IMG/VR virus record: IMGVR_UViG_3300042308_001371 | Location: 1-64,000 of that record | Origin: a virus | Reading direction: 5' to 3' (one strand) | DNA: 64,000 bases | Shown here: piece by piece, positions 1,885-56,155 of the stretch | Layout of the letters: each line of letters begins with the position of its first letter | Numbering within the stretch: the first letter of the stretch is position 1 | Notes under the pieces: model-generated | Databases searched by the model: none | Told to the model about the DNA's origin: nothing | The model's input: only the letters and a program-made list of their open reading frames with translations | Made by a program: the position numbers and the translations under genes

Positions 1885-2094
1885 TTATATTAATTCTTTA
1901 AGTAAGCTGGGAGGATCGTATATATCTGATGTGTGTATGATACAATATCCCTTTTTATGTAAATATTCAAAAACAAAATCCTCGTCAAAATCCTTTCCTG
2001 TATATATTACATAGCATTTAAAATGTTCTGACCATACAACTTGCCCATGTTTTAGGTCAAATAAGTTTAATTTTTTGCCTTTCTCCTCAAACAT
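1885..2094 (-). CDS. Small hypothetical protein, C-terminal tag family (PSLLKELI)
   Basis: 69 aa; LKHGQVVW KOW-like start. Confidence 0.75.
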   Translation of the reverse strand: MFEEKGKKLNLFDLKHGQVVWSEHFKCYVIYTGKDFDEDFVFEYLHKKGYCIIHTSDIYDPPSLLKELI

Positions 2095-2369
2095 ACAATA
2101 CTACCTTTAATTTTGCTCTTATCGCTAGTAATTTCAATAGCATCTTCCATTGCTTTCTCAACTAACTTCTTACCTACGTGTTCTTTTAGAAAATCTTCAA
2201 AGTCAGAGCTTAAATATTTTTGATTTAGCACCGATTGTTCATATTCCAACTCAATAAACCAATCACTTATCCACTCTTCCAATGCTCTTTCACGCATTTC
2301 TGTACAGTTCCAATGTTTTTGATCGGTCATCCGTGCAATCCTGCGTAGTGCTTGTAGGGCATCTTTCAT
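2067..2369 (-). CDS. Hypothetical protein
   Basis: 100 aa within tightly packed operon. Confidence 0.7.
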   Translation of the reverse strand: MKDALQALRRIARMTDQKHWNCTEMRERALEEWISDWFIELEYEQSVLNQKYLSSDFEDFLKEHVGKKLVEKAMEDAIEITSDKSKIKGSIVCLRRKAKN

Positions 2370-18144: not shown

Positions 18145-18501
18145 ATGGGTTGTATATTAGATAGTATAAGACTTAAAGAAATATTAGAAGGTTCACAAAC
18201 TGTAAATGTTGATTGGACTTCTCCATCTTTTTCTTTAGATGATAGAGAATCTGAATTTTCAATAATGGTTACTTATGAAAATGGAGTTTCTCCAAATATG
18301 AGGCTGATTCTTCAATTTTCCTCTGATAATGTTAATTTTTCAGATTTAGCAGAGTCCTATCAACGAATTACAGATTCATCTGGAAGTCATATATGGGATA
18401 TAAATGGAGCTGGTTCCTTATATGTACGTGTAAAAGTACTTGTAACATCGGGTTCTATAGATATCTCTAGAATATTTTACGCTGGAAAACAAAGGCATTA
18501 A
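18145..18501 (+). CDS. Putative virion structural protein
   Basis: Beta-rich; LQFSSDNVNF...YVRV pattern. Confidence 0.6.
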   Translation: MGCILDSIRLKEILEGSQTVNVDWTSPSFSLDDRESEFSIMVTYENGVSPNMRLILQFSSDNVNFSDLAESYQRITDSSGSHIWDINGAGSLYVRVKVLVTSGSIDISRIFYAGKQRH

Positions 18502-39773: not shown

Positions 39774-40121
39774 ATGCCTAGCTTATATGCGCAGTTTGTA
39801 GAAGAAATACTAGACCTAAAAACTTTAGAAGATGAAGATAGCTTTGTTACATATGAAATTCAAAAAGCAGGACACGTAGTATGTTTAAAAGTAGTAAATA
39901 TGTATATTGATAAAAAGTCTAGAGGAAAAAATAAATCTATAGATTTGCTTGATAAAATGAAAGATATAGCACATAGCAAAAATTGTTCTTGTCTATCTGC
40001 TCAGATTAACAAAGCAACTAGTGAGTTTATTCAACAGAGAACTACCCATATATGTAGACTATATGGGATGAAAAATACGTATGAAGATTCTCAAATTATA
40101 ATTTTTAGTAGGAGCATATAA
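39774..40121 (+). CDS. GNAT-like protein in ejection operon
   Basis: NMYIDKKSRGKNKS resembles acetyl-CoA motif A; typical podovirus position. Confidence 0.55.
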   Translation: MPSLYAQFVEEILDLKTLEDEDSFVTYEIQKAGHVVCLKVVNMYIDKKSRGKNKSIDLLDKMKDIAHSKNCSCLSAQINKATSEFIQQRTTHICRLYGMKNTYEDSQIIIFSRSI

Positions 40122-45025: not shown

Positions 45026-45430
45026 TTAAAACTCCAAACTCAAAGCATGAGTTATTATTCCAAAAGACACTAAATTATTAATTTTAATAGTATCTGTAAT
45101 GGGTATCTTAAAGTTTAATCCGATAACTGGGGTAAATCCGAAAATTGAGGGAGGTATAATTCCACGCTTTTGAAAGGTATCAAAATTGGTATTATATCCA
45201 CCTAGCATAAAATCTGTATACTCTGATAGCTTGAAGCTAGATATTGGTCCAACAACATTTCCACAGGCTGAATCTTTACCCTTAAGAATACCCACCTTAG
45301 CCTTATCACTTCCAGCCATAGCTATAATATATTCATTATGGATCGTTCCAACATTATTTATTGTATTACAGTAGTTTAATTTAGGGGCCATGTAGTGATG
45401 TGTTATTCCCCCGTAGATCAATGATATCAC
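45026..45430 (-). CDS. Hypothetical beta-rich protein ending in Phe
   Basis: GGAGG RBS before GTG; ends HALSLEF. Confidence 0.65.
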   Translation of the reverse strand: MISLIYGGITHHYMAPKLNYCNTINNVGTIHNEYIIAMAGSDKAKVGILKGKDSACGNVVGPISSFKLSEYTDFMLGGYNTNFDTFQKRGIIPPSIFGFTPVIGLNFKIPITDTIKINNLVSFGIITHALSLEF

Positions 45431-45532
45431 GCCTCTCCTCCATTCCAGTATAAAGCTTATGACACGCTAAGAATCCTATCATAAATGATAAGAACATAGA
45501 AGTTATAAATGTCCCCCAGTTCATATCCTTCA

Positions 45533-46459
45533 TTAGTATACCCACTTAGGCTTACCACTCAGCACTACCATGGAGTCTAGCGTGAATTTCTTTGGTTTAA
45601 TTGCTAAACTAGGAGCTTCAAACTGAGCGTTTAGCAACGCTTCATCTAATACGCTATGCAAGCCTCTAGCTCCTAATCCCTTCTCAATAGCCTTCTGAGC
45701 TATGATATTAATAGCACTATCCTGTACTACAAGCTCAATACCTTCGCTCAAAAACCACTCTTTAAATGAGTTTAAGATAGATCCCTTGGAGTCACGTAGG
45801 ATCTTCCTGTAATCATCAAATTTAAGCTCCTGAAGCTGCGTGATAACTGGGAATCTTCCCAAGAATTCTGGGATCATTCCAAAATCCATAAGAGTAGGAA
45901 CTGAAGCAGACTCTAGACCCACAAAAGCTCCAGAGCATATAAACATAATATCTTTAGTATTCATTTTTTTATCGTACTCCCCATTCTGAGAATATCTAGA
46001 AATATATGGAACATCGCTACCTTCTAGTAGTTTTAAAAGAGATTGCTGTACGCCAAGTCCGTTAACATCAGCTCCTCCGTCTTGACTAGTCTTCTTCTTA
46101 ATTTTATCTATTTCATCAATGTAGATAATTGATTTAGAAGCTTTCTTTTCATCTCCCTCACAAATACCTAGCAGATCGGTAATAAGTTCTTCAACACTCC
46201 TACCCTGATATCCAGAAGAAGTAAACTGAGTTGCATCGCTTGTCAAGAAACTTACTCCAAGAATTCTAGATAAGATAGAAACTAGGTAAGTCTTACCACA
46301 TCCAGTAGGTCCAATTAGAAGCACGTTAGATTTTTTTATTGTACTACCATTCATTCTTTTAAAATGATTATATGCAGCAACTGATAAAGATCTTTTAGTC
46401 TTTTCATGACCAATCACGTACTCATCTAATTCTTTTTTAATTTGCTCTGGGGTTTTCAT
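45533..46459 (-). CDS. clpX: ClpX-like AAA+ ATPase lacking Zn-binding domain and IGF loop
   Basis: LDEYVIG, KSNVLLIGPTGCGKT, IIYIDEIDKI, GVQQSLLKLLEG, PEFLGRFP, GARGL. Confidence 0.92.
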   Translation of the reverse strand: MKTPEQIKKELDEYVIGHEKTKRSLSVAAYNHFKRMNGSTIKKSNVLLIGPTGCGKTYLVSILSRILGVSFLTSDATQFTSSGYQGRSVEELITDLLGICEGDEKKASKSIIYIDEIDKIKKKTSQDGGADVNGLGVQQSLLKLLEGSDVPYISRYSQNGEYDKKMNTKDIMFICSGAFVGLESASVPTLMDFGMIPEFLGRFPVITQLQELKFDDYRKILRDSKGSILNSFKEWFLSEGIELVVQDSAINIIAQKAIEKGLGARGLHSVLDEALLNAQFEAPSLAIKPKKFTLDSMVVLSGKPKWVY

Positions 46460-46650
46460 TATGCTTTCTTTGGAAATACTCTGTTTTCATCTTTATCAAA
46501 AAATTCCATTGAAAAAGAGCCATCATCTTTCCATTCAAGCGTATAAGATTCAACTAAGTCTACATCTTCAAACAAGTCAGCTAAATCATAAACGTCAATA
46601 TAATGCTCTCCAGAATCTTCATCTTTTTTAATCTCAATCCTATTTGTCAT
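46459..46650 (-). CDS. Small acidic hypothetical protein
   Basis: 63 aa; TAATG coupled on both sides. Confidence 0.7.
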   Translation of the reverse strand: MTNRIEIKKDEDSGEHYIDVYDLADLFEDVDLVESYTLEWKDDGSFSMEFFDKDENRVFPKKA

Positions 46651-47542: not shown

Positions 47543-48307
47543 TTAAAATGTTAAGTTCATTTTTCTACTTGTAGATCCCAACTGCTTTTTAATTTTAGAC
47601 ATATTTTCAGGTTTTACATTTCTTTCAAAACGTATACTTAAAGGTGCTGAAATTAAAGGACACTTAGAATACGTAACAGTAGCATTTCCAAATATACTTG
47701 CAATTGATTCAGAATGTGTTTGCTTAAACAACTTCTTACTACATGTAACATTAGCAACCTCATCAGCATGGCCAGCTTTTACAGCATTATCTCCAAACAA
47801 CCACAGTTCATTAATGATAGCTGCGTCATAATCAGCTTTAGACATTCCAGACCTCTTCGATGCTGCATCTGACATTTTAGATAGTAATGCTTGAATATGG
47901 GTTAGTCTTGAATTTAACTCTCCGGGAACTTGACCAGAGATACCTGAAACAGATCCTCTGTGACTCATAAGAGTTCCAGATGGTGTGATATACCTTGCTC
48001 CAAGCTCTTGAACAATTTGATATCCCATAGATGCTGCAAAAATAGTAACTGTGTGTATTTTAATATTAAGAGCTTTAATAATATCAATAAATTGTAATCC
48101 AGCAGTTACAGAACCGCCCGGTGTATCCATAACTAGGTATAGTTCCTTTTCACTAAACGACTTTTCAATAATTTCTACAGTCTTCTTAGAAACGTACCCA
48201 TCAGACACCGCCTGATTAAATACTACACAATTCTTTTCATTTAGTTCAATATCTTTAGCATGTACCATAGTTGACAATAGGGTTAGACTTAATAAAATTC
48301 TAAGCAT
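47543..48307 (-). CDS. ClpP-family (S14-like) serine protease with signal peptide
   Basis: DTPGGSVTAG, AASMG (Ser), LMSH (His); GGAG before ATG 48307; MLRILLSLTLLSTMVHA leader. Confidence 0.8.
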   Translation of the reverse strand: MLRILLSLTLLSTMVHAKDIELNEKNCVVFNQAVSDGYVSKKTVEIIEKSFSEKELYLVMDTPGGSVTAGLQFIDIIKALNIKIHTVTIFAASMGYQIVQELGARYITPSGTLMSHRGSVSGISGQVPGELNSRLTHIQALLSKMSDAASKRSGMSKADYDAAIINELWLFGDNAVKAGHADEVANVTCSKKLFKQTHSESIASIFGNATVTYSKCPLISAPLSIRFERNVKPENMSKIKKQLGSTSRKMNLTF

Positions 48308-48382
48308 GAATACTCCATAAAATGAAACAAACAAAATCGTTTGTAAATAAAATATACTAAATTAGTAAACAAATAACAAGGA

Positions 48383-50391: not shown

Positions 50392-50652
50392 CTATTCACT
50401 AGTTACCTCATCAATAGTTTTTTTCCTAAGTTCATAGTAATCTTGATTAGTTTGCTGCGCAAGCATTTTAATAAGATAATTTATAGCTTTTTTTAAATCC
50501 TGCTCCCCATTCTTGTGCCTGTATCTAGCAATATACTTAACAACTGCCCCCTGCATATAATCAAATCCCATGCCAGTTATAGCATCCCAAACTTCAATAG
50601 TTCCATTATTATATCTCGATGGTCTAGCAATTGTTTCTGATTCTTTTGACAT
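50392..50652 (-). CDS. DUF3310-like protein
   Basis: PSRY...IEVWDAI...GAVVKYIARYRHKNGEQDLKKA. Confidence 0.85.
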   Translation of the reverse strand: MSKESETIARPSRYNNGTIEVWDAITGMGFDYMQGAVVKYIARYRHKNGEQDLKKAINYLIKMLAQQTNQDYYELRKKTIDEVTSE

Positions 50653-50663
50653 TAATACACTCC

Positions 50664-50897
50664 CTATAAGTTAAGTGTTGAAGCGGATTCATTCAATCTT
50701 TGTTTAACCATATCTTCAGATATGTGTAGCAGATCAGCAATGTCTGATACAGATTCCCCACTAATATACAACATGCATACATACCAGTTAGACTCTATAA
50801 AATAGTTGGTATCCACTGTTAGTCTAATCTCAGATACGGTGGGATACTTATAAATAATTCTATGAATTTTAAATATAATTCTAGCTATTGTTTTCAT
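50664..50897 (-). CDS. Small HTH-like protein
   Basis: SGESVSDIADLLHISEDMVKQRL. Confidence 0.55.
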   Translation of the reverse strand: MKTIARIIFKIHRIIYKYPTVSEIRLTVDTNYFIESNWYVCMLYISGESVSDIADLLHISEDMVKQRLNESASTLNL

Positions 50898-55852: not shown

Positions 55853-56155
55853 TTAGCATAAGAATTCTTTAATACGCTCAAGCAGGGATAGCTTACGTAC
55901 ATCCTCAATACAGTACCACATGGTATAATAGAAATACATGCCAGCATTATTGAATTTCCAACACACTTTTACCTGATCAGGCTCAACTATAATAACTTTA
56001 CCAGTTCCAAGTATAGCTAAAGACTCACATAGCATTTGCTCAAAAGAAGAAGCATTCACTCCTCCACGAAGTTGCCAACCATCAAATGCGTCATCAATGT
56101 TATGATAAAAATTAAATCCTCTACTAGTCATCTTAACAAGTGCGCCTTTTTTCAT
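55853..56155 (-). CDS. Hypothetical protein (KOW/SH3-like start)
   Basis: MKKGALVK. Confidence 0.65.
   Translation of the reverse strand: MKKGALVKMTSRGFNFYHNIDDAFDGWQLRGGVNASSFEQMLCESLAILGTGKVIIVEPDQVKVCWKFNNAGMYFYYTMWYCIEDVRKLSLLERIKEFLC

What the first reader, a model, noticed from the sequence alone, without database searches (positions are those of the whole stretch)
45533..46459. Stripped-down ClpX: no Zn-binding domain, no IGF loop, GYQG pore loop
Seen: the protein starts at MKTPEQIK with no C4 Zn domain. FICSGAFVGL is joined to LMDFGMIPEF by only 8 residues, where canonical ClpX has a much longer segment carrying the IGF/LGF loop. Pore-1 reads GYQG rather than GYVG and no RKH loop is visible, while Walker A/B, arginine finger and sensor-2 are intact. 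Established: IGF docks ClpP, the ZBD binds adaptors, and the GYVG and RKH loops set ssrA-tag recognition. Inference: a protease-uncoupled unfoldase with new specificity, a plausible reader of the 16-member C-terminal tag, or a dominant-negative subunit for host ClpX.
Basis: partly seen in the sequence, partly recalled or inferred. Interest (0 to 1): 0.78.

Follow-up and report, generated by a model that had tools for sequence, protein, structure and literature searches.

The report
Minimal phage ClpX without ClpP-docking loop
An uncultured lake phage carries a pared-down copy of the protein-unfolding motor ClpX that has lost the parts used to dock onto the ClpP protease and to bind adaptors, so it most likely works alone as an unfoldase; it is an optional gene, and it is not tied to the shared C-terminal tag on this phage's small proteins.

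Summary
ORF 45533-46459 (-) encodes a 308-aa ClpX-family AAA+ ATPase (E. coli ClpX E=7e-69; model TM 0.89). It starts at the AAA+ module, so there is no zinc-binding domain. Seven residues replace the ~40-residue IGF segment. Pore-1 reads GYQG, RKH is absent, and all ATPase motifs are intact.

The architecture is fixed in a metagenomic family: the linker length is identical in 117 of 117 members. GYQG is not a signature, because the third residue varies (Q, T, S, A, E, G). The RKH site holds its own conserved loop.

'Protease-uncoupled' is well supported by inference:
- there is no IGF loop and no HslU-like tail;
- the phage has no HslV;
- the nearby ClpP-like protein carries a signal peptide.

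A 100%-complete close relative (G006) has 29 tagged ORFs and no ClpX-like gene. Four phages with the gene (59-79% identical) have no tag.

The gene sits in an optional cassette at the end of the leftward operon. IGF-less ClpX has precedent (yeast Mcx1), and about one in ten of the nearest ClpX clusters also lack the loop. This scan flagged the same family on at least six other genomes.

Verdict: new variant of a known kind, moderate interest, substrate unknown.

The parts
45533..46459 (-). Gene for a 308-aa minimal ClpX-family AAA+ ATPase (large plus small AAA+ domains only)
   Evidence: NCBIfam ClpX NF003745 scores 303.5 bits, below the 359 cut-off. PDB ClpX E=7e-69. AF2 model pLDDT 84, Foldseek TM 0.89 to ClpX 8e91.
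46289..46312 (-). Walker A, GPTGCGKT (residues 50-57)
   Evidence: GPTG[CS]GKT in 116 of 117 family members
46202..46213 (-). Pore-1 loop GYQG (residues 83-86). The Tyr is invariant and the third residue varies across the family.
46103..46117 (-). Walker B, DEIDK (residues 115-119)
45962..46018 (-). Loop at the RKH-loop position (residues 148-166). There is no RKH; the family motif is PY-x-S-x3-5-NGE[YH]D.
   Evidence: Alignment to E. coli ClpX; motif present in 82 of 117 members; conserved columns in A2.
45893..45913 (-). Seven-residue linker ESASVPT (residues 183-189) standing in place of the ~40-residue IGF-loop segment
45851..45859 (-). Arginine finger within PEFLGRF (R202)
45659..45673 (-). 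Sensor-2 GARGL (R265)
46459..46650 (-). c22: a 63-aa acidic protein. Its stop overlaps the ClpX-like start (ATGA). It is found only in the closest relatives and its role is unknown.
47543..48334 (-). ClpP-like serine protease with an N-terminal Sec-type signal peptide. It is a neighbour, probably exported, and is not counted as a partner.
   Evidence: Pfam CLP_protease 7.8e-16; signal-like N-termini in all relatives; alignment to ClpP.

Best explanation
The gene encodes a stand-alone, ClpP-independent AAA+ unfoldase or remodeller, and it is a ClpX by descent. It keeps everything needed to form an ATP-driven ring that grips and pulls a polypeptide: Walker A and B, the arginine finger, sensor-2, the invariant pore-1 tyrosine and the pore-2 segment. 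It has lost the two ClpX-specific add-ons, the adaptor-binding zinc domain and the ClpP-docking IGF loop. It carries its own conserved loop where ClpX has the RKH loop, which suggests its own substrate specificity.

It is made from the end of the leftward (early/middle) operon. It is an optional cassette, so it provides an accessory function during infection, such as remodelling or inactivating a particular host or phage protein, rather than a core step of the phage cycle.

Shown: the architecture, its conservation, and its patchy distribution. Inferred: hexamer formation, unfolding activity and lack of ClpP docking. Unknown: the substrate.
For: Family and fold: ClpX is the best hit by HMM, by sequence and by structure. 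HslU is second at 142 bits against 235.

Motifs: all ATPase motifs and the pore-1 Tyr are invariant or nearly so in 117 members at 65-96% identity, so the motor is under selection.

No docking element:
- The IGF segment is absent in 117 of 117 members.
- The C-terminus KPKWVY aligns to E. coli 'KPLLIY', so there is no extra tail.
- Pfam Proteasome (HslV) has no match in the 97%-complete genome.
- The only Clp-type peptidase gene has a signal peptide in every relative and starts aligning at ClpP residue ~30-50, so it lacks the axial N-terminal loops.

Accessory status: 7 related genomes that are at least 90% complete lack the gene. In G006 and G007 the syntenic operon ends after c14, exactly where c22-ClpX-c1 are inserted in this genome. 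The family also sits in otherwise unrelated gene contexts.

Precedent: yeast Mcx1 lacks the IGF element and acts purely as an unfoldase (PMC10886707).
Against: No activity, oligomeric state or partner was measured.

Lack of the IGF loop shows loss of the known docking mode. It does not show that no peptidase can bind.

The polar third pore-1 residue (Q/T/S/E in place of V) might weaken grip.

No substrate candidate emerged. No gene is consistently linked to it: c22 occurs only in the closest relatives, and c6 also occurs without it.
Confidence: 0.6

Rival explanations
1. It interferes with host ClpXP. Either it co-assembles with host ClpX into rings that have too few IGF loops to hold ClpP (a poison subunit), or it competes for ClpX substrates and so shields them from degradation.
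For: It retains the ClpX ring-forming core at ~40% identity to bacterial ClpX. It lacks exactly the ClpP-docking element. It is an optional gene, as host-takeover genes often are.
Against: The pore-1 Tyr and a family-specific loop at the RKH site are conserved, which a pure poison subunit would not need. About 40% identity makes mixed rings uncertain. The host and its ClpX are unknown, so nothing could be tested.
Confidence: 0.15
2. It is the reader (unfoldase or receptor) of the shared 8-residue C-terminal tag on the phage's small early proteins.
For: The tag is real and abundant here: 22 of 128 ORFs in this genome. ClpX recognises C-terminal degrons. The gene and the tag co-occur in G000, G001 and the closest contigs.
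Against: G006 is 100% complete and tag-rich (29 ORFs ending L-x-x-A-L-x), yet it has no ClpX-like gene by HMMER-based search or by tblastn at E<10. G002 (79% identical ClpX-like, same GYQG), G003, G004 and G005 have the gene and no C-terminal enrichment at all. No tagged ORF lies within 10 kb of the gene in L009-L020. The loop at the RKH site is acidic (NGEYD), which suits an acidic tag ending in a free carboxylate poorly; this last point is inference.
Confidence: 0.06
3. It still feeds a peptidase (host ClpP, the phage ClpP-like protein, or another) through a docking surface that does not use an IGF loop.
For: A ClpP-family gene lies 1.1 kb upstream on the same strand in the closest relatives, and co-occurs somewhere in 4 of 5 further ClpX-like-bearing genomes.
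Against: That ClpP-like protein has a signal peptide in all relatives. It is present in ClpX-less genomes too (G006, G007). It is far from the ClpX-like gene, or absent, in G002, G003 and G005. The ATPase has no tail or loop that could dock.
Confidence: 0.08

Closest known systems
Bacterial ClpX (E. coli ClpX; PDB 3HWS, 6WRF, 8E91)
   Same: Same AAA+ large and small domains, at 38-41% identity and TM 0.89. Same Walker A and B, Arg finger, sensor-2 and pore-1 Tyr. A pore-2 segment of the same length and a beta-hairpin at the RKH position. The C-terminal strand is homologous.
   Different: No N-terminal C4 zinc-binding domain. The ~40-residue IGF segment is replaced by 7 residues. Pore-1 is GY[polar]G, not GYVG. 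RKH is replaced by a family-specific NGE[YH]D loop. It scores below NCBIfam's ClpX cut-off (303 against 359 bits).
Yeast mitochondrial Mcx1 (a ClpX without ClpP)
   Same: A ClpX homologue that lacks the IGF element and works as a pure unfoldase/chaperone in an organism without ClpP (PMC10886707). This is the best functional analogue.
   Different: Mcx1 is eukaryotic and has a known client (ALA synthase). Its relation to this family was not tested here. The phage protein is much smaller and has no known client.
HslU (ClpY)
   Same: Second-best family (E~1e-40). From my own knowledge, not tested here: HslU also has only a short linker between GAF and IPE.
   Different: HslU has a large I-domain inserted after pore-1. 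From my own knowledge, it also has a C-terminal tail that activates HslV. The query aligns to HslU in two pieces with the I-domain missing, it ends without a tail, and the genome has no HslV.
Canonical phage-encoded ClpX (jumbo phages and other viral contigs)
   Same: Phage-borne ClpX homologues at 37-42% identity.
   Different: Those keep two CxxC motifs (the zinc-binding domain), a 41-51-residue segment with I/M/V/LGF, and GYVG. Several sit next to a cytoplasmic-type ClpP.
Other IGF-less ClpX-like clusters in metagenomes (P0135, P0148, P0237; with a zinc-binding domain: P0126, P0130/P0131, P0152, P0165, P0188, P0216)
   Same: Short 15-19-residue linker without IGF; 13 of the 150 nearest 50%-identity clusters.
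   Different: They fall at several places in a poorly resolved tree, whereas this family plus P0122 forms its own clade with 100 support. Many keep the zinc-binding domain and GYVG.

Membership tests
ClpX (equivalog sense: the ATP-binding subunit of ClpXP) | HCLR-clade AAA+ module (large plus small domain) most similar to ClpX | tested here: met
   Best HMM, sequence and fold matches are all ClpX.
ClpX (equivalog sense: the ATP-binding subunit of ClpXP) | Score above the curated family cut-off | tested here: not met
   NF003745 scores 303.5 against 359; TIGR00382 scores 272.6 against 370.75.
ClpX (equivalog sense: the ATP-binding subunit of ClpXP) | N-terminal C4 zinc-binding domain | tested here: not met
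   The protein starts at the AAA+ module. There are 49 residues and no CxxC before Walker A.
ClpX (equivalog sense: the ATP-binding subunit of ClpXP) | IGF/LGF ClpP-docking loop | tested here: not met
   A 7-residue linker; the GAF-to-IPEF distance is 15 in 117 of 117 members, against 41-51 in canonical ClpX.
ClpX (equivalog sense: the ATP-binding subunit of ClpXP) | GYVG pore-1 loop | tested here: inconclusive
   The Tyr is invariant, but Val is replaced by Q/T/S/A/E/G.
ClpX (equivalog sense: the ATP-binding subunit of ClpXP) | RKH loop | tested here: not met
   The aligned loop reads ISRYSQNGEY, and the family motif is NGE[YH]D.
ClpX (equivalog sense: the ATP-binding subunit of ClpXP) | Walker A and B, Arg finger, sensor-2 | tested here: met
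ClpX (equivalog sense: the ATP-binding subunit of ClpXP) | Forms a complex with ClpP and delivers substrates to it | not testable with these tools
   Needs biochemistry. The sequence features argue against it.
HslU | I-domain inserted in the large AAA+ domain | tested here: not met
   The query aligns to HslU in two stretches that skip the I-domain (query 3-100 and 109-295 against chain ~4-106 and ~250-421).
HslU | HslV partner encoded or available | tested here: not met
   No PF00227 match in the phage genome. The host is unknown.

The most novel reading that the evidence does not exclude
The minimal ClpX is a phage weapon against host proteostasis. It enters or mimics host ClpX rings and uncouples them from ClpP, or it acts as a ClpP-free unfoldase that strips a specific host complex (for example a defence or division protein). 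That would make it a new class of phage takeover factor built from the host's own motor.
Probability: 0.15. Interest if true: 0.65.

Novelty: new variant of a known kind. Interest (0 to 1): 0.36.

Why it matters
This is about the smallest natural ClpX known from these searches: just the motor, with a fixed 7-residue patch where the ClpP-docking loop used to be. It is conserved across well over a hundred sequence clusters of lake-phage proteins.

That makes it a clean natural experiment on what a ClpX ring does without ClpP and without adaptors, and a compact candidate for structural and single-molecule work.

For phage biology it flags an optional, horizontally moving unfoldase cassette whose target is unknown.

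For the separate question of the shared C-terminal tag, it removes the most obvious candidate reader, so that search should turn to other phage or host proteins.

Tried and rejected
- Complex prediction of the ClpX-like protein with the translationally coupled upstream protein c22 gave no verdict (score 0.00). This is not evidence either way.
- The look-up of sequencing runs listed no RNA holder, so nothing can be said on expression. DNA holders are lake-water metagenomes.
- HslU-like docking through a C-terminal tail was rejected. The conserved W-x-[YFL] end is simply the homologue of the last ClpX strand 'LLIY'.
- The neighbouring ClpP-like protein as partner was rejected because of its signal peptide and its independent distribution.
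- Homology between c22, c68 and the 116-aa N-extension of P0062 (a shared 'YID..D.A' patch) is not supported: hhalign probability is ~1%.
- PADLOC gave only weak P-loop hits (best E=2.5e-6 over 60 residues), so there is no defence-system assignment.
- The promoter and terminator scan around the gene showed nothing above shuffles.
- The literature search found no description of a phage IGF-less ClpX.
- The tree backbone was too poorly resolved to count how often the IGF loop was lost (quick search only, the careful one did not finish).

Full report
**What is there.** The window is the first 64 kb of an 81,765-bp IMG/VR virus record that CheckV rates 97% complete. Near-identical DNA occurs in lake-water metagenomes. 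The rightward arm encodes terminase, a P22/SU10-type portal and other late genes. The leftward arm encodes DNA polymerase A, a DnaB-like helicase and many small proteins.

The ORF at 45533-46459 (-) is real and gives 308 residues. Its best matches are ClpX:
- NCBIfam ClpX scores 303.5 bits, below that model's 359-bit cut-off. HslU is second.
- Against solved structures, E. coli ClpX matches at E=7e-69 in two stretches.
- An AlphaFold2 model built on a 29-sequence family alignment has mean pLDDT 84 and superposes on ClpX chains from ClpXP cryo-EM structures at TM 0.89.

**Checking the observation.**
- The protein begins where the deltaN-ClpX crystallisation constructs begin, so there is no zinc-binding domain. 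There is no CxxC before Walker A.
- Query residues 184-188 span E. coli deltaN residues 195-232, so the IGF-loop segment is missing. FICSGAFVGL and LMDFGMIPEF are joined by seven residues, ESASVPT.
- Pore-1 is GYQG. The stretch aligned to 'GGRKHPQQEF' is 'ISRYSQNGEY'.
- Walker A, Walker B, the arginine finger and sensor-2 are intact.

This is a fixed architecture, not a one-off deletion. A search of 5.8 billion proteins returned a dense family of 304-316-aa proteins at 65-96% identity. In 117 full-length members the GAF-to-IPEF distance is 15 residues without exception, and the ATPase motifs are essentially invariant. Canonical ClpX genes on other viral contigs have two CxxC motifs, a 41-51-residue segment with I/M/V/LGF, and GYVG.

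Two refinements to the finding:
- GYQG is not a signature. The tyrosine is invariant, but the next residue is Q (77), T (23), S (5), A (4), E (4) or another residue (4).
- The RKH site is not empty. It holds a loop of similar length with its own conserved motif, PY-x-S...NGE[YH]D, in 82 of 117 members.

**Is it uncoupled from a protease?** Four observations say that the known docking routes are gone.
1. The IGF loop is absent throughout the family.
2. The conserved C-terminal W-x-[YFL] looked like a possible docking tail. It aligns to 'LLIY' of E. coli ClpX, the last strand of the small domain, and the phage protein stops right there. There is therefore no HslU-type tail.
3. The genome has no HslV or proteasome-type gene.
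4. The ClpP-family gene 1.1 kb upstream (47543-48334) begins with a typical Sec-type signal peptide, as do its homologues in all relatives (for example MRKLLIPLTLLCSTAFA/KP). It aligns to ClpP only from about residue 30-50 onward, so it lacks the axial N-terminal loops. That protein is also present in relatives without the ClpX-like gene, and lies tens of kilobases away from it in others.

These are inferences from sequence. No binding was measured.

**The tag hypothesis.** The shared C-terminal tag is real. In this genome 22 of 128 ORFs end in [STAPG]-x-L-x-x-[EQ]-L-x, and relative G001 has 10 such ORFs. I asked whether the tag and the ClpX-like gene travel together. I compared ten whole or near-whole genomes, reached either through the ClpX-like protein or through the portal.

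| Tag | ClpX-like gene | Genomes |
|---|---|---|
| present | present | G000, G001 |
| present | absent | G006 |
| absent | present | G002, G003, G004, G005 |
| absent | absent | G007, G011, G013 |

- G006 has a portal 83% identical to this phage's and is 100% complete at 84.7 kb. It has 32 ORFs ending L-x-x-x-L-x, 29 of them with Ala at -3. It has no ClpX-like gene by the genome search or by tblastn at E<10.
- G002's ClpX-like protein is 79% identical and also reads GYQG. G003 is 98% complete. In G002-G005 only 0-4 ORFs match even the loose pattern, and no C-terminal position is enriched.
- G007, G011 and G013 are 93-100% complete.
- No tagged ORF lies within 10 kb of the gene in nine more distant family loci.

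The sample is small and was not drawn at random. It implies a co-varying receptor that G006 must also have, and that receptor cannot be this protein.

**Genomic setting.** In this genome c14, c22 and the ClpX-like gene are translationally coupled through overlapping stop and start codons. They are followed by a small membrane or lipoprotein-like ORF, a 134-aa protein ending in an OMP-like '...SLEF', and a small hydrophobic protein. After that comes the convergent late operon.

In G006 and G007 the same operon ends right after c14. The c22-ClpX-c1 block is therefore an insertion at a variable operon end. Seven related genomes that are at least 90% complete lack the gene.

No neighbour is constant:
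- c22 occurs only in the closest relatives.
- A different small acidic protein (c68) precedes the gene in L010 and L016.
- c6 (187 aa) often follows the gene, but it is missing here and also occurs in ClpX-less genomes.

**Wider relatives.** A full HMMER scan of 1.84 billion representatives found the family's nearest outgroup (P0122, 58% identity), followed by ordinary ClpX at 40-48% identity. Thirteen of the 150 nearest clusters also have a 15-19-residue linker without IGF. Some of these keep the zinc-binding domain and some do not. In a quick maximum-likelihood tree this family plus P0122 is a clade with 100 support on a long stem. The other IGF-less forms are scattered on an unresolved backbone. 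Multi-module AAA+ proteins with IGF-less ClpX-like units also exist, for example a 1,238-aa protein from Caenarcaniphilales MAGs.

Yeast Mcx1 is the published precedent for an IGF-less ClpX acting as a pure unfoldase (PMC10886707). I found no paper on a phage version. This scan has flagged the same family on at least six other genomes.

**Conclusion.** The most likely reading (about 0.6) is a stand-alone, ClpP-independent unfoldase or remodeller with its own substrate-recognition loop, carried as an optional cassette. The rivals are interference with host ClpXP (0.15), docking to some peptidase by an unknown surface (0.08), and reading the tag (0.06). It is a new variant of a known kind. It is interesting as a minimal natural ClpX and as a tractable experimental object, but it is not a surprise in principle, and its link to the tag system does not hold.

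Noticed in passing
window 47543-48334 (-): A ClpP-family serine protease with a Sec-type signal peptide, conserved in all relatives, including those without the ClpX-like gene. Ser (AASMG) and His are kept, and the catalytic Asp position aligns to Glu. This looks like an exported or periplasmic Clp-type protease in a phage, which is unusual in itself.
   Followed up: partly
window 45026-45545 (-); L016:9341-9796: Downstream of the ClpX-like gene lie a small ORF with a TM segment and a lipobox-like 'FLAC', and a 134-aa protein ending '...HALSLEF' (like an OMP beta-signal). In L010 and L016 an SLT transglycosylase sits two genes upstream. The cassette may be embedded in a lysis-type cluster.
   Followed up: partly
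G006 (loci L168-L172), whole genome: The shared C-terminal tag exists in a variant with Ala at -3 (T-[EP]-L-x-x-A-L-L) on 29 ORFs of a relative. This genome and G001 use Glu at that position. One 1,357-aa late protein of G006 ends in the Glu form (SSLVLELL).
   Followed up: partly
window 2067-2369, 18145-18501, 39774-40121, 50392-50652, 50664-50897, 55853-56155 (and 74448-75290 beyond the window): These untagged gene clusters are present only in the three tag-bearing genomes (G000, G001, G006) and in none of the seven tag-less ones. They are candidate tag receptors, but the pattern is confounded by close kinship.
   Followed up: no
L009:9653-10927 (protein P0062): The ClpX-like ORF is called with a 116-aa Trp/Asp-rich N-terminal extension. 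Alternatively it starts at a GTG at the family's usual start. The extension has a weak 'YID..D.A' likeness to c22 and c68, which is not significant.
   Followed up: partly
proteins P0121, P0123, P0125, P0212, P0218: Proteins of 750-1,240 aa with two or three tandem AAA+ modules, of which the ClpX-like module lacks an IGF loop. P0121 comes from Candidatus Caenarcaniphilales MAGs.
   Followed up: partly
G000:C1:71311-71556 (-), beyond the window: A second, weak AAA-type P-loop match (16 bits, below the cut-off) in a 401-aa frame.
   Followed up: no
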